Notes: generated by a model not told the origin, from the sequence alone. A DNA stretch of 64,000 bases from a virus (IMGVR_UViG_3300050821_003463:30544-94543); one strand, 5' to 3'. Numbered from the stretch's first letter, positions 39,992 to 47,503 are shown. Program-made: numbers and translations.

Positions 39992-40762
39992 TCATGCGTC
40001 CTCCCGTCGAGCTAAAGTTTCAAAATACTCAGCGAGATCAAAGCGAGAGGTTCTCTGGATTTTACAGAAGCCGCAGGACTCTCCGACCGGATGAAGATGG
40101 TACGTGGAGCCAGCGGAGGGAATCGAACCCCCGACCTCGGGTTTACAAAACCCTTGCTCTGCCGTCTGAGCTACGCTGGCAGTTTTCCACACCTTATCTG
40201 GCGCGATGACATGATGCGACTCAGTCTTCGCCATCTTCGCTTCAATCTCTTCCAGTGACCAGGGCTCGAAGTCGTGACTGTCTACGCCAATATCAAAAGA
40301 GTGCCCGAGTTCTTCGATCTCCCCGTGCGAGTGTCCGTAGACGTGCCACGAACCCTTGTGCGAGTTCTGCCATACGCGCTGGGCGAAGTGAGAGATCACT
40401 ATCATATGTTTGTTGAACTTCACGCTGTGACTCGTGTTCTCTTTGTTAACTCCCCGAACCCACTCGAACTCTTTCTGCAGTGTAACGCGGCGCTCCATCA
40501 GCTCATCGTGATTGCCGTAGAGAAACGCATGTCTTCCGTTTAGACGATGAACGATGGATCGCGCTTCCATCTCACTCATTGTCTGCCAAAACATGTCCCC
40601 GGCGTGGATAGTCAGGTAGGATGGCTTATTGGGAACCTTCTTGTTGTGGCGCTCGATGATGATCTCTCTCATCTCCTCAGTCGAGGAGAACGGGCGATTG
40701 CAAAACTGAATGATGTTGTTGTGCCCGTAGTGCTCGTCACTGGTGATGAAGATTTCGCTCAT
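39992..40762 (-). CDS. Calcineurin-like metallophosphoesterase whose 3' part reads through a tRNA gene
   Basis: SDEHYGH, GD, GNHD, HF, GHSH, DIGVD. Confidence 0.9.
   Translation of the reverse strand: MSEIFITSDEHYGHNNIIQFCNRPFSSTEEMREIIIERHNKKVPNKPSYLTIHAGDMFWQTMSEMEARSIVHRLNGRHAFLYGNHDELMERRVTLQKEFEWVRGVNKENTSHSVKFNKHMIVISHFAQRVWQNSHKGSWHVYGHSHGEIEELGHSFDIGVDSHDFEPWSLEEIEAKMAKTESHHVIAPDKVWKTASVAQTAEQGFCKPEVGGSIPSAGSTYHLHPVGESCGFCKIQRTSRFDLAEYFETLARREDA
40105..40180 (-). tRNA. tRNA-Thr (anticodon TGT), CCA encoded
   Basis: GCCAGCG/CGCTGGC acceptor, GCTC/GAGC D-stem, TTTGTAA loop, TTCGATT T-loop, TCCA end; 76 nt. Confidence 0.92.
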
Positions 40763-41127
40763 TTTACTCTCGTTGCCTCCGATGAAGTGCCCTGTGTGTA
40801 CGTCAGAGGTGCCGTGTTTACCAGCACGAAAACTTTGCTTTCCAAAGTGACGACTTCGGGTATTTCCGGTACAGATGTCATCACAACCTTGACTCGCGCG
40901 AGAAACGTCTGGGAAATATGCCCGAATTTGGGTGTCTCGACCATGCGCGCGACGATGGAAAACATTTGAGATGGAACTCTCGTCTCATTCCAACGCAAAG
41001 CAGCAGGCGGGGGTGGCAGGAGAGTTCCGAGTTTTCGTTTGACTTCGCTTAGAGCGAACCTAGCCATTTCTTCAGGACTGGCGTCTTGGATGCGTGTCTT
41101 TCTCCGCGCCTTCTTCTTTATCGCCAT
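40759..41127 (-). CDS. Hypothetical protein
   Basis: AAGGAG RBS directly after the tmRNA coding piece. Confidence 0.55.
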   Translation of the reverse strand: MAIKKKARRKTRIQDASPEEMARFALSEVKRKLGTLLPPPPAALRWNETRVPSQMFSIVARMVETPKFGHISQTFLARVKVVMTSVPEIPEVVTLESKVFVLVNTAPLTYTQGTSSEATRVK

Positions 41128-41140
41128 GTCTTCTCCTTAA

Positions 41141-41340
41141 AACCAGAAATTAACGGGGACTTTCTGTTCCAAGGTCGTCCCCTGAACCCGCTGACGCGGC
41201 AGCTTTAGGCTGCGGCGGCAAATGCTTTCGGCTTTTCAGTCGTAGCAATTATTGTTTCTGTGTCCTGTTAACGGTAGCCACAGCAGCCCGACACGCAAGT
41301 TAAAACCCTGATGCGCCGCAATCGAAACCATGACGCCCCC
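41141..41340 (-). ncRNA. ssrA: tmRNA coding piece of a permuted ssrA; tag (A)ATTEKPKAFAAAA
   Basis: 5' GGGGGCG...TTCGA at 41340; ATAATT before resume codon GCT at 41246; tag ORF 41246-41205; downstream GGGGAC/GTCCCC pseudoknot. Confidence 0.9.
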
Positions 41341-41449
41341 ATCAAAGTCGCCCACTTGACGAATCGCGCTCTGCCGTATTCCGATGAGAGCAACGGGTCG
41401 TTTTCTCGTAGTGGTCAAACACACGCCCTTGCGCTTTCTTGGGCGACTT

Positions 41450-41510
41450 TGGTGGAGGCGGGGAGAGTCGAACTCCCGTCTTACAGCGTCAATGCTAACC
41501 TTCTACGTGT
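41450..41510 (-). ncRNA. ssrA: tmRNA acceptor piece of a permuted ssrA (5' extent uncertain)
   Basis: GAC-GGGAG-TTCGACT-CTCCC-CGCCTCC-A-CCA; pairs with GGGGGCG giving G3.U70; lies upstream of the 5' piece in the transcript. Confidence 0.9.
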
Positions 41511-41915
41511 GTTCTTGAAGAAGCGTTTCTCAAAGTCCCGCTTGCTCCTCAATTTCTCCTGCGTGTACCGTCCGTTTCGCGGAGTCACGCTTTTATATTC
41601 TTTGATTAGCATGCGAGCCCGTCTAACCTTTTCAGGCTCGCGCAGATATGGAAAAATCAAACCTAAAAATTTTATCGCCGCATCTCCGCTCAATGACCAA
41701 ACCCCGCTCGGAGAGTGACTCTTCTTAGAAGGTCGTTTCCCGCTTATACAGCCGCCAAAGCGGGTCCACATCCAACTCAACAAAGCTGGCGTGCAACTCG
41801 GAATTGAAACAGTCGGCGCTCGGTGTTCTCCCTTATGACGATGAGTCAGAGTCACCGTGCCCTCGCCATCGAAGAGTCCTGCTGCGTACGATAAGTCAAG
41901 AGAGTCATTTGTCAT
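41481..41915 (-). CDS. Single-motif LAGLIDADG homing endonuclease
   Basis: YAAGLFDGEGTV, FGG, IFPYLREPEK. Confidence 0.88.
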   Translation of the reverse strand: MTNDSLDLSYAAGLFDGEGTVTLTHRHKGEHRAPTVSIPSCTPALLSWMWTRFGGCISGKRPSKKSHSPSGVWSLSGDAAIKFLGLIFPYLREPEKVRRARMLIKEYKSVTPRNGRYTQEKLRSKRDFEKRFFKNTRRRLALTL

Positions 41916-42459: not shown

Positions 42460-44538
42460 CTATTTCTTGTAGTACGGACCTTCCCATCCTTCAGCCTTGA
42501 GCACGAAGCCCATTCCCTCAGCCCACTCCGGTATGATACACATCGCCGCCAGCAGGTCCTTCTCTCCGAGAGGAGAATCAATCGGCACCTCACCTACTAT
42601 TTCATCATGGATCGTCATGATGATCGTGAACCCCAGCTTCTCGGCTTCGAGCATGCCGCTAAGCAGAAGGTCCCTGGCGATAGCCTGTACGACGTTTTCT
42701 GTTAGAAGTCCGCCGTAAAGTCGGTTGTCCTTCGCGCCCTTCGAACCATACATGATGAAGTGGATGCCCTCTCTAGGAGGACCGCCCCACGGTGGAGGTT
42801 CGCAAACGAGGCGCGGCTGATGGTAGTGGATGTATCTTCCGCTGGGCAGCTTGATCTTCAGGCAGTTCTCATCGCGCCCATCCACCACAAGACCGTTCAC
42901 ATAAACACAAATACCAGCCTTCAACGCAGTCAGTGTCGCCGCATTCAGCGCAGCCCAGAGATCGCATATCTCAGGGTACGTCTCGCGGAATCCATAGACT
43001 GCTTCCTTCGCTTCCTTCTCGTTCAAGACGATGCCGTATGTCGCGGCGTAGTCAATGAACTTCTCCCAGCCCATCCCGTATCCGCAACCGAGGATGATGA
43101 CCTTGCCTCGATCTCTGTGTGACTTCGTGACCTCGCTCAGCGGAATGCCGAGCTGTGCTGCCATGACTTCTTTGTAGAGATCGCGCCCTTCTGCGTAAGC
43201 TGACATCATTCCCGGGCACTGTGCAATCGCCGCGAGAACGCGGGACTCGATCTGCGCAAGATCGCCCGCGACCAACTTGTTTCCTGGTGCTGCGGCGAAC
43301 GCGCCGCGAATCGTCGACGCTACGACCTCCATCACCGTGAAGATATCCACTTGGAGATGCGGCTGTGGCTTCTCTGTCGGGTGCGCCGCGTTCCACTCAT
43401 CCATCACCGCGTCATACGCTGCAATAACGGTCGGGATATCGAGCGTTCCACTCCGGATAGCCGCCGTCAGAGCATCGGTGCATTTGGAAACTTCCCGGTT
43501 CGGCTTGTACAAGTTCTGCAACTGCACACCGCGCCCCGCCCAGCGCCCCGTGTGCGCGCCGTGATAGATGAACTGGTCGTGCAGACGTCCGTCCGCGCCT
43601 ACGAGGTCTTCTATCTTCTGCAGCTTCGTATACGCGGAGCCGCCGATCTTCTGTTTGAGTTCAAGAATCTTTCGCGGCAGAGGTTTCAGATAGGGGAGCT
43701 TCAGCCCTTCTTCGACGTGCTCAGCATCAAGACTGTCGAACGGATAGCCTCTCTGTTGCAACCATTCGAGCAACTGGTCACGAGAGTTAGGATTCTCCAA
43801 CCCAGTTTCTATCTTCATCTCACTGATGAACTGGTCAACTGCGCCGAGCGCGAGCGCCTTCGCATTCGCTACGTACGCTTTGTCGATCCAGACGCCCGTG
43901 CTGTTCATGCGCTGGTCAAGCAGCCACGCCTGCTTCTCCCCGGGAGTGATGGGAGAGTTGAACGCAACCGCCGCGTGCCACACGCCACGCTCCGCGATGA
44001 CGTCCATGATGCAATACTCACAGAACTGTTTCCATTCCTCCGGATGCGAGTTCCAGTCCTTGAAGTAGAGAGCCGGTGCGGTCGGGTCTTTCTTCAGAAT
44101 GCGCTTGAACTGTTTGCTCGGCTGGGAGAACAGCTTGACGCCGCGCTTATCGCCCGTCGTGTGGATTTTCTTCTCGTCGATATTGAGCGCGTTGCCCGCT
44201 CGGTCCAAGCCGATAGGAAGGGACATGTACGCGCACAGGACGTTCGGGTCATACCATTCGACGAGAGGGATCGCGATGCCGAGTTTATAATGTAGAATGT
44301 CCTTCTCGAAGTTGAAGTTCCAGGCGCACTTGATCACGGTCGGGTCTGTCAAACCGGCGAGGAGTTCCTGGGGCATCGGCTCGCCCAGGCACGGGAGCCA
44401 GAGCTTGGGATAGTCTTCGTCGAATGCCCACGCGAGCATCAGAACGCTGGTCGTCGGGTCCTTGGCGTAGCGATCCAGTCCGCATAGCTTGATGCTGGTC
44501 ATCGAGCGCGTTTCAAAGTCTAGCCAAAGTCGTCTCAT
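42460..44538 (-). CDS. Phage family A DNA polymerase with 3'-5' exonuclease
   Basis: LDFET, HTGRWAG, DLAQIESR, RDRGKVIILGCGYG, TIHDEIV. Confidence 0.95.
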   Translation of the reverse strand: MRRLWLDFETRSMTSIKLCGLDRYAKDPTTSVLMLAWAFDEDYPKLWLPCLGEPMPQELLAGLTDPTVIKCAWNFNFEKDILHYKLGIAIPLVEWYDPNVLCAYMSLPIGLDRAGNALNIDEKKIHTTGDKRGVKLFSQPSKQFKRILKKDPTAPALYFKDWNSHPEEWKQFCEYCIMDVIAERGVWHAAVAFNSPITPGEKQAWLLDQRMNSTGVWIDKAYVANAKALALGAVDQFISEMKIETGLENPNSRDQLLEWLQQRGYPFDSLDAEHVEEGLKLPYLKPLPRKILELKQKIGGSAYTKLQKIEDLVGADGRLHDQFIYHGAHTGRWAGRGVQLQNLYKPNREVSKCTDALTAAIRSGTLDIPTVIAAYDAVMDEWNAAHPTEKPQPHLQVDIFTVMEVVASTIRGAFAAAPGNKLVAGDLAQIESRVLAAIAQCPGMMSAYAEGRDLYKEVMAAQLGIPLSEVTKSHRDRGKVIILGCGYGMGWEKFIDYAATYGIVLNEKEAKEAVYGFRETYPEICDLWAALNAATLTALKAGICVYVNGLVVDGRDENCLKIKLPSGRYIHYHQPRLVCEPPPWGGPPREGIHFIMYGSKGAKDNRLYGGLLTENVVQAIARDLLLSGMLEAEKLGFTIIMTIHDEIVGEVPIDSPLGEKDLLAAMCIIPEWAEGMGFVLKAEGWEGPYYKK

Positions 44539-45360: not shown

Positions 45361-47442
45361 TCATTGAATACCCTCTTCGAGCGAGAAAACCTCGGTCCCT
45401 TTGTGCGTCTTACCAACAACTCGGATGGCGTTACCCTTCAGTAGAGCCCCCCAAGCCCTATTGAAAGTATCCATACCACCGCTGCCCGCACGGAACACGT
45501 TGCATGAACTCTGAAGCGCTGACTTTGTGAGTGTTTCGTTTTTCTTCAGAGCCCGTCGCATCGACTGCTCCATTCGTTCGATAAGGTTCCCTTTGTCAAC
45601 GGGCCACAGTTCTTGACGTAGGTATAGTTCATAAGTCGCCCATGCAATGGCACGCTCTACATTGTCCGCAGTGATAACAGCGGGAGTAGTCTCGGACCCT
45701 GAGAACAGCGACCGGAGTAATATGTCTCGTTTGAAATAAGACTCTAAACGGGACAGGTAGTCGACATCTGGATTGTCTTCGTATAGCTTTTTGGTTTGTC
45801 CTGAAAGATAGGCTTGAAAGTCGCCTTGCAACTTTTTCGCAGCTTCTTCTCGAACAGGAATGACCCGCGTGTTCTTTTGGTCCGCGAATAGATTGGAGAT
45901 ACTTTGCCAACGAGCCATCATTTTTGCAGTCACAGCTTCGATTTTTTCCAGGTCTAAATCGGGCCACTCCCCCGTTTTTTTGGTTAATCCCGTATACGCG
46001 AGGACAACACGGGACATGAATCCGTCGCCGCCTTGCCCTTTGCCCGCGAGAGCACTCTCGAAGGACGAGCGAGTGAATCCGCCCGTCATAGACAGAGATA
46101 GATTGTCGAAGGCTCCGCCTTTATGCGTCAGACTTCCCGCGCTAGCATCCCCCCGGTCGAAAATGGAGATCAAATTAGACATGAGAGTAGACCCGGCAGC
46201 GGAGCCTTTATCAAATAGAAACTTCATCTCATCGAAGTTCACGAGGCAGCGTTTGTTTGTGAATTCGTCCTCGCTCAGATATCTCACCATGTGCTCTCCA
46301 GAGGAGAACATCCCCGATTTTGGGCGCATCATTCCAACTTTGGCAATGTATGTCGCCAGGGCAAATTCAGCCGTGCGGGTCCACGACATCCCCTTTCCCG
46401 CTTCGGGGTGTTGCGACACTAGAAATGTCCAGTGTTTCATGTGCAAATCGGGGTGAGACGGAAAACCTACCATACCGTCAAGTGACGCGGCAAGGATAGT
46501 TTTGATTTGGGCTCGTGCAAAACTGAGCGGGATGAACGTCCCATCCGTGACGAGGTGCGCCAATTCTGCGATCCAATCTCCCTCAAGGGCAACACATGGG
46601 ATTTCTTGAATTGCGGTATCGACCTTTTGGGTATCGCTGAAGAAGACAGCCGCTGTCGGCGCTTGGGCGTCGAATTTGCTGATAGCAGCGTGTGCGATTT
46701 CTTTTATCTTATCGTCGGGGTAGTTCTCGCCATCTTCGCAATTTTCCGCTGCAAAATCTTTCAGAGCGTTATAGATTCCCTCCTCTGACAAAAATGCGTT
46801 GCGAAGTTTTCCCGCAACACTTTCGAGGTGCATCCAACGGTTGCCCGCAGGGATCAGCCCGCCGTGATCTGCTTTTGTCTGATTTACATCTAAGGGTGCC
46901 TTGCTTTTTTCTTTAGAGAGAGTTATGAATCCTTCTGGCAACGGAACAATTTCAGTCTCAATGACAATCCGATATTCTTCACCGCTAGGGTGGATAGAAC
47001 CGGGACCGACGACGTAACCGCCGATACCTTTGAGTTCACCAGTGACACTCCCCACTTTGAAACCTGTTGTGGTCACAGCCCCTGAGTAGTATAGGTGGAA
47101 TCCCGCTTCGGTCGTTCTGCCCGACTGTACAGTGAACGTTTGAGGGAGATTATGCTCCTTCATCCACGAGCGCAGTTCTTCCAGGCTATTAACTCCGTGA
47201 TCAACGTCGACAACTGTAATGTTGCTGGGACCGCATCCGACGCCATAGTTAGCAGCTTCGCCATTGTCCCACGCAGCAAAGACTACAGACTCGGGTTTTC
47301 GAATTGCTGAGTTGATAGCATGAGGAGAGTATTTTGGGTATGGACCCTTATCCCCGGGCAAGCAGGTCAAAACAGCAAACCCCCTATTCAGGGCATCCGC
47401 TACAGCAGCGCGTAATTTTGCTACAATCTTAGGATCGTTCAC
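45361..47442 (-). CDS. Bifunctional primase-polymerase with PriCT and C-terminal helicase-like (DUF3987-type) domain
   Basis: NYGV..G...VVDVD, GFHLYY, GGYVVGPGSIHPSG; PEAGKG, FDEM; GTG start after GGAGG. Confidence 0.85.
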   Translation of the reverse strand: MNDPKIVAKLRAAVADALNRGFAVLTCLPGDKGPYPKYSPHAINSAIRKPESVVFAAWDNGEAANYGVGCGPSNITVVDVDHGVNSLEELRSWMKEHNLPQTFTVQSGRTTEAGFHLYYSGAVTTTGFKVGSVTGELKGIGGYVVGPGSIHPSGEEYRIVIETEIVPLPEGFITLSKEKSKAPLDVNQTKADHGGLIPAGNRWMHLESVAGKLRNAFLSEEGIYNALKDFAAENCEDGENYPDDKIKEIAHAAISKFDAQAPTAAVFFSDTQKVDTAIQEIPCVALEGDWIAELAHLVTDGTFIPLSFARAQIKTILAASLDGMVGFPSHPDLHMKHWTFLVSQHPEAGKGMSWTRTAEFALATYIAKVGMMRPKSGMFSSGEHMVRYLSEDEFTNKRCLVNFDEMKFLFDKGSAAGSTLMSNLISIFDRGDASAGSLTHKGGAFDNLSLSMTGGFTRSSFESALAGKGQGGDGFMSRVVLAYTGLTKKTGEWPDLDLEKIEAVTAKMMARWQSISNLFADQKNTRVIPVREEAAKKLQGDFQAYLSGQTKKLYEDNPDVDYLSRLESYFKRDILLRSLFSGSETTPAVITADNVERAIAWATYELYLRQELWPVDKGNLIERMEQSMRRALKKNETLTKSALQSSCNVFRAGSGGMDTFNRAWGALLKGNAIRVVGKTHKGTEVFSLEEGIQ

Positions 47443-47503
47443 GACACCTCCGACCAGAAACACCGCGAGGGATGCCGAAGCATCCCCCCGTGTATTTTGT
47501 AGA

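What the first reader, a model, noticed from the sequence alone, without database searches (positions are those of the whole stretch)
41141..41510. Phage-encoded circularly permuted (two-piece) tmRNA
Seen in transcript order: acceptor piece ending T-arm-CGCCTCC-A-CCA (41450), a 109-nt intervening segment closed by a perfect 11-bp inverted repeat (41344-41354/41440-41450), then the 5' piece GGGGGCG (41340). The acceptor stem has G3.U70. P2 pairs TTGCGGCG with CGCTGTAA and TTGCGTGT with ACACGTAG. The tag is ATTEKPKAFAAAA*. Known: permuted ssrA occurs in Alphaproteobacteria, some Cyanobacteria and some Betaproteobacteria, and phage tmRNAs I know of are one-piece. Inference: possibly an independent permutation in a phage. 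No smpB in the window.
Basis: partly seen in the sequence, partly recalled or inferred. Interest (0 to 1): 0.85.

Follow-up and report, generated by a model that had tools for sequence, protein, structure and literature searches.

The report
Two-piece tmRNA in acidobacterial phage
This soil phage really does carry a circularly permuted (two-piece) ribosome-rescue RNA, conserved in its relatives including a cultured phage of Acidobacteria, but phage two-piece tmRNAs are already known and this one shares a hallmark with the alphaproteobacterial type rather than being a fresh invention.

Summary
ARAGORN and Rfam RF04321 (75.5 bits, cut-off 47) call a permuted tmRNA at 41150-41510 (-) with tag ATTEKPKAFAAAA, G3.U70, an encoded CCA and a 109-nt intervening segment closed by an 11-bp stem.

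It is a real, selected gene. Eight related uncultured phages and the cultured Tunturiibacter phage Tunturi_3 carry it at the same position between DNA polymerase and a phosphoesterase. 41 of 77 predicted pairs covary.

Phage two-piece tmRNAs are published (Melnitz and 53 others, PMC9004378). An independent permutation is unlikely: the coding piece ends in the pseudoknot with a CC..AACAGAA loop found in 39 of 40 sampled Alphaproteobacteria and in 0 of 77 one-piece tmRNAs.

What is unusual is a mosaic. The tRNA-like domain and the tag are not alpha-type. They look like ordinary bacterial ones, including those of the probable hosts, the Acidobacteriaceae, which have one-piece ssrA (major capsid 82.5% identical to Tunturi_3).

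There is no SmpB in the 94.5-kb genome. No beta-type reference could be obtained. Verdict: a new variant of a known kind, of moderate interest, with a cultured system now available for testing.

The parts
41450..41510 (-). Acceptor piece (minimum extent): P2 3' strands (41510-41478), T-arm (41477-41461, loop TTCGACT), acceptor 3' strand CGCCTCC (41460-41454), discriminator A, encoded CCA (41452-41450). The true 5' end is unknown; Rfam's alpha model extends to 41556.
   Evidence: covariation
41341..41449 (-). Intervening segment of 109 nt, removed in the mature RNA. It is closed by an 11-bp stem (41450-41440 with 41354-41344) that ends 3 nt before G1.
   Evidence: All 9 clade members have a 10-14 bp closing stem of different sequence.
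41155..41340 (-). Coding piece: acceptor 5' strand GGGGGCG (41340-41334), D-loop analogue TCATGGTTTCGA, P2 5' strands (41328-41291), PK1, tag frame, stop hairpin and tail pseudoknot. The 3' end lies somewhere between 41154 and about 41140.
41258..41289 (-). Pseudoknot PK1 region upstream of the resume codon (helix 41283-41275 with 41266-41258).
   Evidence: 8 bp, 6 positions with compensatory changes
41205..41246 (-). Tag reading frame: resume codon GCT (41246-41244) to GCC (41210-41208), then stop TAA (41207-41205). It encodes ATTEKPKAFAAAA. The stop codon lies in the loop of a hairpin (about 41220-41189).
   Evidence: The tag pattern A-[TEK]-T-x-K-P-[KR]-A-[FM]-AAAA is conserved in relatives.
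41155..41189 (-). Alpha-type tail pseudoknot: S2 GGGT (41189-41186) with ACCT (41175-41172); S1 GGGGAC (41182-41177) with GTCCCC (41160-41155); loop motif CCTTGGAACAGAA (41174-41162).
41481..41915 (-). HNH endonuclease ORF (144 aa) whose last 10 or so codons and stop codon lie inside the acceptor piece. It is present only in this phage, so it is a recent insertion and not part of the tmRNA.
   Evidence: phrog_5046, E 8.5e-21; no homologue in 8 syntenic relatives
40105..40180 (-). Neighbouring tRNA-Thr(UGU), about 1 kb downstream on the same strand (context only).

Best explanation
This is a functional, phage-encoded two-piece tmRNA gene. It belongs to a clade of roughly 75-97 kb soil phages related to Tunturiibacter phage Tunturi_3, whose hosts are Acidobacteriaceae.

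Proposed mechanism (inferred unless marked). The gene has no recognisable promoter or terminator of its own, so it is probably transcribed as part of the long minus-strand replication-gene transcript. The precursor folds so that the intervening segment forms a long stem that brings the CCA end next to G1. Host tRNA-processing enzymes would then excise the segment: RNase P at G1 and 3' trimming at the CCA. That would leave an acceptor piece of at least 61 nt and a coding piece of about 190 nt, held together by the acceptor stem and three P2 helices.

Host AlaRS would charge it, since G3.U70 is invariant. Host SmpB would deliver it to stalled ribosomes, since the phage has no SmpB. Translation would resume on GCU and add ATTEKPKAFAAAA. 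The likely benefit is to keep ribosomes free during infection, for example when messages are cut.

Evolution. The permuted order and the tail pseudoknot are shared with the alphaproteobacterial type, so the gene most likely descends from that permutation and spread through phages. Its tRNA-like domain and tag are of the general bacterial type, like those of the presumed hosts.

Shown here: the gene anatomy, its conservation, covariation, synteny, and relatedness to Tunturi_3. Inferred: processing, charging, dependence on host SmpB, tagging, and the benefit to the phage.
For: Detection: ARAGORN; RF04321 at 75.5 bits against a cut-off of 47.

Conservation: a permuted tmRNA lies at the same position (primase-PolA-[tmRNA]-phosphoesterase-orf116-orf145) in L002-L006, L039, L048 and L058. 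It is also present in cultured Tunturi_3 (RF04321 63.3 bits, record 88172-88396).

Structure: across 9 sequences 89% of cells are paired, against about 40% when the partner columns are slid. 41 of 77 pairs show double compensatory changes, against 9-17 when slid. This includes all the inter-piece P2 helices. U70.G3 is invariant. The IVS closing stem is kept in all 9 members with different sequences.

Host: the major capsid protein is 82.5% identical to Tunturi_3, the portal 61% and the terminase 47%, with about 30 shared genes. Tunturi_3 infects Tunturiibacter (PMC11924767). A Tunturiibacter chromosome has a one-piece ssrA (L090).

Alpha link: the strict tail motif occurs in 39/40 Alphaproteobacteria, 0/77 one-piece tmRNAs, and in the window, L006, L039, L048, L051 and L054. 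The pseudoknot strands covary (GGGU/ACCU, and GAGU/ACUU in L005). A profile built from alpha tails alone finds L039 (2e-7), L006 (6e-6), L004, L005 and the window (0.04), and no one-piece tmRNA. RF01849 is passed by L006, L039, L051, L036 and L031.

No SmpB in the record. No promoter or terminator near the gene.
Against: The window's own tmRNA misses the alpha_tmRNA cut-off (45.7 against 50) and scores about the same on the beta model (43.0). For Tunturi_3 the beta model is the best clan hit (45.6).

All 40 sampled alphas and phage Melnitz have a GGCRGUA T-loop, an AGGAUCGAC 5' motif and ANDN tags. This gene has none of these, so descent from the alpha type requires replacement or reversion of the whole tRNA-like domain.

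No beta-type two-piece reference could be obtained, so a beta-type or recombinant origin is not excluded.

There is no expression data: no RNA run holds the sequence. Tags of five relatives end in ...AAAAGR and one in ...SATAGM, which are not classical ...AA degron ends, so the fate of tagged proteins is uncertain. L004 has a shortened T-loop and no CCA and may be decaying.
Confidence: 0.7

Rival explanations
1. Independent permutation: a one-piece ssrA of the acidobacterial host type was captured by a phage and became circularly permuted there, for example by tandem duplication and loss of the outer parts. This would create a fourth, phage-born two-piece lineage. The alpha-like tail would then be convergent or acquired later by recombination.
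For: The tRNA-like domain is host-like rather than alpha-like. L006 matches an Acidobacteriaceae ssrA at 32/33 positions of the 3' end and 19/22 of the 5' end, against 24-25/33 and 14-16/22 for alphas. The 5' motif GGGGGCGTCANGGNNTCGA retrieves mostly Acidobacteriota one-piece genes. None of the three lineage-specific Rfam models outscores the generic RF04321, unlike typical lineage members (PMC11915505).
Against: The canonical tRNA-like domain is the general bacterial state, so it says little about ancestry. The tail pseudoknot, with its near-identical loop (ACCUGGCAACAGAA in both L006 and alpha L195) at the same distance from the stop codon, is absent from all 77 one-piece tmRNAs examined, including about 55 acidobacterial ones. 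The post-tag region of the acidobacterial ssrA shows no similarity to it. Bridging forms exist: L051 has an ANDNF...ALAA tag, an alpha tail and a canonical tRNA-like domain.
Confidence: 0.1
2. Beta-type or recombinant origin: the gene descends from, or recombined with, the betaproteobacterial two-piece lineage. That lineage may have a canonical tRNA-like domain. In a permuted gene the tRNA-like domain is one contiguous patch (T-arm, CCA, IVS, 5' strand), so it could be swapped in a single event between two permuted genes.
For: Beta-model scores equal or exceed alpha-model scores for the window (43.0 against 45.7), L002, L003, L005 and Tunturi_3. The 2025 tmRNA database types 5 genes in Acidobacteriota genomes as 'permuted (beta)' (PMC11915505 Table S2). 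These could be phage contigs of this family; I did not check this.
Against: No member reaches the beta gathering score of 84 (best 66.8). Five phage members pass the alpha cut-off and none passes the beta one. No beta reference was available to test for the tail element.
Confidence: 0.12
3. Not a working tmRNA: a decaying relic, or a decoy whose tRNA-like domain titrates host SmpB or AlaRS to block host trans-translation. This was shown for the TLD-only RNA of mycobacteriophage DS6A (PMC4131195).
For: The phage has no SmpB. Tag C-termini are variable and non-canonical in relatives. L004 looks degenerate. Rfam scores are about half those of bacterial members (75 against 118-166 bits).
Against: PK1, the resume context (AAUAAUU-GCU), the tag frame, the stop-in-hairpin and the tail pseudoknot are all conserved with compensatory changes across a clade whose PolA is only 56-78% identical. 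A decoy would need only the tRNA-like domain.
Confidence: 0.07
4. Assembly artefact that reordered the two halves of a normal ssrA.
For: None beyond the fact that the window comes from a metagenome assembly.
Against: The same order is found on 8 related contigs from at least 6 different samples and in the genomes of cultured phages Tunturi_3 and Tunturi_4. The IVS closing stem covaries.
Confidence: 0.01

Closest known systems
Unannotated permuted tmRNA of Tunturiibacter phage Tunturi_3 (PP885686, record about 88058-88427, minus strand), a cultured podovirus of Acidobacteriaceae (PMC11924767)
   Same: Homologous and syntenic, lying between the DNA polymerase and the phosphoesterase. It has the same opening ACACGUAGAAGGUU, a canonical T-loop, G3.U70, and a tail pseudoknot with an ACCUCGUAACAGAAC loop. 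The two phage genomes share about 30 genes, and the capsid protein is 82.5% identical.
   Different: Its acceptor stem is GGGCUUG/CAAGUCC and its IVS is only 25 nt. Its tag is about 30 residues and ends ...ATMLAA. ARAGORN misses it, and the paper reports only a tRNA of unknown type. It has no HNH gene next to it.
Two-piece ssrA of Methylophilales phage Melnitz and the pelagimyophages (Buchholz et al. 2022, PMC9004378)
   Same: A phage-encoded, circularly permuted tmRNA in a phage whose host is not an alphaproteobacterium. It has a long IVS, an AACAGAA tail pseudoknot, and no phage SmpB is reported.
   Different: Melnitz is alpha-type in every signature: T-loop GGGCAGUA, 5' AACUAGGUUCGAC and tag ANDNYVPVDYALAA. 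It carries a glutamine riboswitch and is marine. The window's gene has a canonical tRNA-like domain and a Lys/Pro-rich tag, and comes from soil.
Alphaproteobacterial two-piece tmRNA (Rfam RF01849; Caulobacter prototype, Keiler, Shapiro and Williams 2000, cited from PMC9004378 and not read here)
   Same: The same gene order (acceptor piece, IVS, coding piece), the same P2/PK1/tag layout, and the same tail pseudoknot with a CC-N-AACAGAA loop at the same distance from the stop codon.
   Different: Alphas have a GGCRGUA T-loop, an AAAYAGGAUCGAC 5' motif, ANDN tags and an IVS of mostly 3-58 nt. They score 118-166 bits on RF04321 and pass RF01849. The window's gene scores 75.5 bits and misses RF01849 (45.7 against 50).
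One-piece phage tmRNAs (mycobacteriophage Bxz1 group, Bacillus phage G) and the TLD-only RNA of phage DS6A (Hudson, Lau and Williams 2014, PMC4131195)
   Same: A phage-borne ssrA without a phage smpB, presumed to use the host's trans-translation factors.
   Different: Those are standard (unpermuted) or truncated forms.

Membership tests
tmRNA (ssrA), permuted / two-piece form (Rfam RF04321) | Score at or above the curated gathering threshold of the covariance model | tested here: met
   75.5 bits against 47, full model 1-213. ARAGORN also calls a permuted tmRNA.
tmRNA (ssrA), permuted / two-piece form (Rfam RF04321) | tRNA-like domain: 7-bp acceptor stem with G3.U70, T-arm, discriminator A and CCA end | tested here: met
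   Read directly. U70.G3 is invariant in 9/9 clade members, and the T-stem shows 3 compensatory positions.
tmRNA (ssrA), permuted / two-piece form (Rfam RF04321) | Circular permutation: the 3' (acceptor) part lies upstream of the 5' (coding) part, separated by an intervening segment, with the pieces joined by inter-piece helices | tested here: met
   Order confirmed. The inter-piece P2 helices covary. The IVS closing stem is conserved.
tmRNA (ssrA), permuted / two-piece form (Rfam RF04321) | mRNA-like domain: PK1, then a resume codon (GCN), a short tag frame with an Ala-rich hydrophobic end, and a stop codon in a hairpin | tested here: met
   The tag pattern is conserved among relatives, although five relatives end in ...GR.
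tmRNA (ssrA), permuted / two-piece form (Rfam RF04321) | Two separate mature RNAs, alanylation, SmpB binding and trans-translation activity | not testable with these tools
   No RNA run holds the sequence. Bench work is needed.
tmRNA (ssrA), permuted / two-piece form (Rfam RF04321) | Dedicated partner SmpB available | tested here: not met
   No PF01668 match in the 94.5-kb phage genome. Host SmpB is presumed to serve but was not tested.
Alphaproteobacterial-type two-piece tmRNA (Rfam RF01849) | Gathering score of 50 bits | tested here: not met
   The window scores 45.7 bits over the full length. Relatives L006 (72.8), L039 (51.7), L051 (65.3), L036 (57.3) and L031 (53.6) pass.
Alphaproteobacterial-type two-piece tmRNA (Rfam RF01849) | T-loop GGCRGWA and 5' motif AGGNUCGAC (empirical: 39/40 and 38/40 of the alphas sampled here) | tested here: not met
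   The window and all 17 phage-family members have UUCGAYU and GGNNUCGA instead. Part of the phage set was selected by that 5' motif; L002-L006 were not.
Alphaproteobacterial-type two-piece tmRNA (Rfam RF01849) | Tail pseudoknot after the tag with a CC-N(1-4)-AACAGAA loop (empirical: 39/40 alphas, 0/77 one-piece) | tested here: met
   The window has CCTTGGAACAGAA at 41174-41162, with S1 and S2 present. The alpha-tail profile gives E 0.04 for the window and 2e-7 to 2e-3 for four relatives.
Alphaproteobacterial-type two-piece tmRNA (Rfam RF01849) | ANDN... tag | tested here: not met
   The tag is ATTEKPKAFAAAA.
Betaproteobacterial-type two-piece tmRNA (Rfam RF01850) | Gathering score of 84 bits | tested here: not met
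   43.0 bits. The best clade member scores 66.8.
Betaproteobacterial-type two-piece tmRNA (Rfam RF01850) | Lineage-specific sequence and structure signatures | not tested
   No beta-type reference was found in 151 and 401 sampled genomes. Those samples include the unpublished genomes G113, G215 and G370.
Cyanobacterial-type two-piece tmRNA (Rfam RF01851) | Gathering score of 70 bits | tested here: not met
   33.1 bits, covering the tRNA-like domain only.

The most novel reading that the evidence does not exclude
The window's gene represents a distinct, phage-borne class of two-piece tmRNA. It would be a mosaic in which an alpha-type mRNA-like module (the permuted order and the AACAGAA pseudoknot) is joined to a host-matched, non-alpha tRNA-like domain. 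This would let phages of one-piece hosts such as Acidobacteria run their own trans-translation with a reprogrammed tag. Tags such as ...KPKAFAAAA, and ...AAAAGR in relatives, may not be ClpXP degrons. They could spare or redirect tagged proteins, conceivably towards the phage's own AAA+ machinery.
Probability: 0.2. Interest if true: 0.65.

Novelty: new variant of a known kind. Interest (0 to 1): 0.4.

Why it matters
Phage-encoded tmRNAs have been catalogued, but none has been functionally tested in its two-piece form, and they are usually read as copies of the host's gene. Here the phage's probable hosts make a one-piece tmRNA, yet a whole phage clade maintains a two-piece gene under clear structural selection. 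That gene carries a module otherwise typical of Alphaproteobacteria, fused to an ordinary tRNA-like domain. This suggests that two-piece tmRNA genes travel between phages across host phyla. It also suggests that the tRNA-like part and the messenger part evolve as separable modules. The practical gain is that two cultured Acidobacteria phages (Tunturi_3 and Tunturi_4) turn out to carry unannotated permuted tmRNAs. Processing, charging, tagging and the benefit to the phage can therefore be tested at the bench.

Tried and rejected
- **blastn of the tmRNA against 50,697 phage records:** no match at 1e-5. With L006 or L051 as query, only short T-arm hits appeared, plus Melnitz.
- **L015 as a possible precursor:** this one-piece phage tmRNA has the same 28-nt 3' end and a similar tag (...AFAAAA). 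I rejected it because its phage shares no PolA with this clade.
- **An apparent RF04321 hit in an Acidobacteriaceae genome (50.6 bits):** it is only the 5' half of that genome's normal one-piece ssrA.
- **The motif hits in Gemmobacter and Paracoccus (L079, L137):** these are not their ssrA genes.
- **Search for beta-type references:** RF01850 on 151 genomes gave none over the cut-off. A permuted-order pattern on 401 genomes gave mostly a protein-coding false positive, and the three candidates were one-piece genes.
- **Key papers:** Sharkady and Williams 2004 and Keiler et al. 2000 are not held in the library.
- **Promoter and terminator scan:** nothing convincing near the gene.
- **Sequencing runs:** no RNA holder is listed. 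There are two soil DNA runs, one of which is probably the source.
- **ArfB-like RF-1 domain:** present in Tunturi_3 and Tunturi_4 but not found in this phage.
- **My first regexes** for splitting the pieces and for the tail motif were too strict and were corrected.

Full report
**1. The observation**

- T-arm GGGAG-TTCGACT-CTCCC lies at 41477-41461.
- The acceptor 3' strand CGCCTCC lies at 41460-41454, followed by A and then CCA ending at 41450.
- A 109-nt intervening segment (IVS) spans 41449-41341. Its ends form a perfect 11-bp stem (41450-41440 with 41354-41344).
- Three bases later comes GGGGGCG (41340-41334), which pairs with the 3' strand to give G3.U70.

ARAGORN calls a permuted tmRNA at 41114-41542 (-) with tag ATTEKPKAFAAAA. 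Rfam's tmRNA_permuted model RF04321 scores 75.5 bits against a gathering score of 47. The tag frame runs from 41246 to 41208, with stop TAA at 41207-41205.

**2. Context**

The window is bases 30544-94543 of a 94,543-bp IMG/VR virus record that CheckV rates complete. The sample is soil. Everything around the gene is on the minus strand:
- primase/helicase (45361-47463)
- family-A DNA polymerase (42460-44538)
- an HNH endonuclease (41481-41915)
- the tmRNA
- a 122-aa ORF
- a phosphoesterase (39992-40762) that contains tRNA-Thr(UGU)

The whole record has one tmRNA, no SmpB and no RF-1/ArfB domain. No promoter-like or terminator-like site flanks the gene on its strand. It is therefore probably cut out of a long transcript.

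**3. It is a conserved, selected gene**

Searches with PolA and with a tmRNA 5' motif in IMG/VR found eight relatives: L002-L006, L039, L048 and L058. PolA identity is 56-78%. All keep the order primase-PolA-[permuted tmRNA]-phosphoesterase-orf116-orf145.

I aligned the nine acceptor pieces and the nine coding pieces and folded the alignment. This recovered the acceptor stem, the T-arm, three inter-piece P2 helices, PK1, the stop-codon hairpin and a tail hairpin.
- 89% of cells are standard pairs, against about 40% when the 3' partners are slid by 1-3 columns.
- 41 of 77 pairs show changes on both sides, against 9-17 when slid.
- The distal P2 helix (41510-41505 with 41296-41291) has no broken pair in nine sequences and four covarying positions.
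- U70.G3 is invariant.
- Every member has a 10-14 bp IVS closing stem that starts at the CCA end and stops 3-4 nt before G1, each with a different sequence.

Misassembly is therefore excluded, and a pure decoy function is unlikely.

The tag peptides follow one pattern: ATTEKPKAFAAAA, ATPKAKAFAAAA, AKTNVKAFAAHA, AETEKPRAFAAAAGR, ATTKPRAMAAAAGR, AETKPLAMAAAAGR, AKTNTLAMGAAAGR and ATPKRAFAAAAGR. L004 reads ATTEKPKAMSATAGM; it also has a shortened T-loop and no CCA.

The HNH gene has no counterpart in any relative. It is a recent insertion whose reading frame happens to run about 30 nt into the acceptor piece.

**4. Host**

ORFs of the whole phage genome were compared with two cultured Acidobacteria phages. 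About 30 genes match Tunturiibacter phage Tunturi_3:

| Protein | Identity to Tunturi_3 |
|---|---|
| Major head protein | 82.5% |
| Portal | 61% |
| Recombinase | 51% |
| Terminase | 47% |
| Helicase | 45% |

Tunturi_3 is a 97.6-kb podovirus isolated on Tunturiibacter psychrotolerans (PMC11924767). The probable host is therefore an acidobacterium. A Tunturiibacter chromosome (L090) and dozens of other Acidobacteriota have ordinary one-piece ssrA genes.

Rfam finds an unannotated permuted tmRNA in Tunturi_3 at the syntenic place (63.3 bits, record 88172-88396). It opens with the same ACACGUAGAAGGUU. The unrelated siphovirus Tunturi_4 also has one (79.2 bits; ARAGORN), next to an RF-1-domain gene. 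The Tunturi paper mentions no tmRNA.

**5. Is it new that a phage has this?**

No. Buchholz et al. 2022 (PMC9004378) describe the two-piece ssrA of phage Melnitz and count 53 unique two-piece tmRNAs, called by ARAGORN, among 18,146 phage genomes. The 2025 tmRNA database lists 79 phage sequences (PMC11915505). Bradyrhizobium phages with tmRNA are also reported (PMC12656738).

**6. Which lineage?**

The three lineage-specific Rfam models do not settle it.

| Sequence | alpha (cut-off 50) | beta (cut-off 84) | cyano (cut-off 70) |
|---|---|---|---|
| Window | 45.7 | 43.0 | 33.1 |
| L006 | 72.8 | 66.8 | 30.4 |

Other members are mixed. L039, L051, L036 and L031 pass the alpha cut-off, and none passes the beta one.

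I therefore compared discrete characters, using 40 alphaproteobacterial ssrA genes sampled across the class. One further gene, from an unpublished genome, was left out. Nearly all of the 40 share these features:
- T-loop GGCRGWA (39/40)
- 5' motif AAAYAGGAUCGAC (38/40)
- ANDN tags and an IVS of mostly 3-58 nt
- after the tag, a pseudoknot of the form GCG-CGGU-UC / G-rich stem / ACCG-GGCAACAGAA / stem (strict motif in 39/40)

The phage clade has none of the first four features. Its T-loop is UUCGAYU and its 5' motif is UCAYGGUUUCGA, as in bacteria generally and in Acidobacteriaceae in particular. L006 matches an Acidobacteriaceae ssrA at 32/33 and 19/22 end positions, against 24-25/33 and 14-16/22 for alphas.

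The clade does have the tail pseudoknot. In the window this is GGGU (41189-41186) with ACCU (41175-41172), GGGGAC (41182-41177) with GUCCCC (41160-41155), and the loop CCUUGGAACAGAA. L006 has the loop ACCUGGCAACAGAA, letter for letter as in alpha L195. L005 shows a compensatory GAGU/ACUU.

The strict motif is in 39/40 alphas and 0/77 one-piece tmRNAs. In the phage set it is in the window, L006, L039, L048, L051 and L054, with near-variants in L004, L005, L037 and Tunturi_3. A profile built from alpha tails alone finds L039 (E 2e-7), L006 (6e-6), L004 (3e-4), L005 (2e-3) and the window (0.04), and no one-piece gene.

Melnitz, the published phage case, is alpha-type in all signatures, including the T-loop and the tag. 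L051 bridges the two forms: it has an ANDNF...ALAA tag, an alpha tail and a canonical tRNA-like domain.

**7. Reading**

Sharing both the permuted order and a lineage-specific pseudoknot is best explained by common descent with the alpha-type gene, not by a fresh permutation. How the tRNA-like domain came to be canonical is open. Three routes are possible:
- retention of an ancestral state;
- reversion under selection in non-alpha hosts;
- replacement of one contiguous patch, since in a permuted gene the T-arm, CCA, IVS and 5' strand are adjacent.

A beta-type contribution cannot be excluded, because I could not obtain any beta-type reference. The database's five 'permuted (beta)' calls in Acidobacteriota genomes may be members of this phage family, but I did not check them.

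**8. Mechanism**

The anatomy is shown; the steps below are inferred. The precursor folds with the IVS stem stacked on the acceptor stem. Host RNase P cuts at G1 and 3' processing exposes CCA. The two pieces stay paired through the acceptor stem and P2. Host AlaRS charges the RNA through G3.U70. Host SmpB and EF-Tu bring it to stalled ribosomes. Translation resumes at GCU and ends at UAA in the hairpin loop.

The neighbouring tRNA, the phosphoesterase, and an RNA-ligase homologue shared with Tunturi_3 suggest a wider investment in keeping translation running during infection. The fate of tagged proteins is uncertain, because several relatives' tags end in GR rather than AA.

**9. Verdict**

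The gene is real and conserved, and it is a phage two-piece tmRNA. It is not the first of its kind, and it is probably not an independent permutation. The mosaic make-up, the acidobacterial host context and the two cultured phages that carry unannotated copies make it a useful, moderately interesting variant.

Limits: there is no expression evidence, no beta reference, and the window's own statistical link to the alpha tail is weak (E 0.04) although its relatives' links are strong. The negative beta searches included the unpublished genomes G113, G215 and G370. No positive claim rests on unpublished genomes.

Noticed in passing
window 41481-41915 (-): The HNH endonuclease ORF ends inside the tmRNA acceptor piece: its stop TAA at 41483-41481 lies within the P2 strand CGCTGTAA. 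It is absent from all eight syntenic relatives, so it looks like a recent homing-type insertion directly upstream of a structured RNA gene.
   Followed up: partly
L002 9174-9594; L003 9062-9495; L005 8667-9112; L048 4398-4842; L058 6804-7295: The tmRNA tags of five relatives end in ...AAAAGR instead of the usual ...AA. Earlier notes on this same phage report unrelated early proteins ending in GR[KR][FM]R. Whether the two observations are connected is unknown.
   Followed up: no
L281 38058-38427 (-) = PP885686 88058-88427; L277 5935-6469 = PP885687 43441-43975: The cultured Acidobacteria phages Tunturi_3 and Tunturi_4 each carry a permuted tmRNA that is not annotated in GenBank or mentioned in their paper. 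Both also encode an RF-1-domain (ArfB-like) protein, which in Tunturi_4 lies directly beside the tmRNA. That gives each phage two ribosome-rescue devices.
   Followed up: partly
L004 8350-8800: This relative's tmRNA looks degenerate. It has a 5-nt T-loop (GCGGG-TCGTA-CCCGC), CTG instead of CCA, a 25-nt IVS and a tag ending ...SATAGM. It scores only 49.2 bits on RF04321.
   Followed up: no
L003, L048 and L058 coding pieces (alignment): Three relatives have a structured insertion of about 50-60 nt inside the PK1 loop region that is absent from the window's gene.
   Followed up: no
L027 7297-7373 and 7508-7583 (332-kb IMG/VR contig): A jumbo-phage contig with a related permuted tmRNA (tag ANAPKAMAAHA) also carries two tRNAs with anticodon CUA (called 'Pyl' by ARAGORN) and one odd tRNA. 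These may be amber suppressors and a hint of stop-codon recoding.
   Followed up: no
L016 4372-4596 (-): An RT-2 RNA (Rfam RF03077, 176.7 bits) lies about 4 kb from a one-piece tmRNA on a viral contig.
   Followed up: no
window 41539-41532 and 41163-41156: GGGACUUU upstream of the acceptor piece, inside the HNH ORF, is perfectly complementary to AAAGUCCC in the tail pseudoknot. It occurs only in this phage and may be chance.
   Followed up: no
L002 keeps a tRNA-Thr at the corresponding place.
   Followed up: partly
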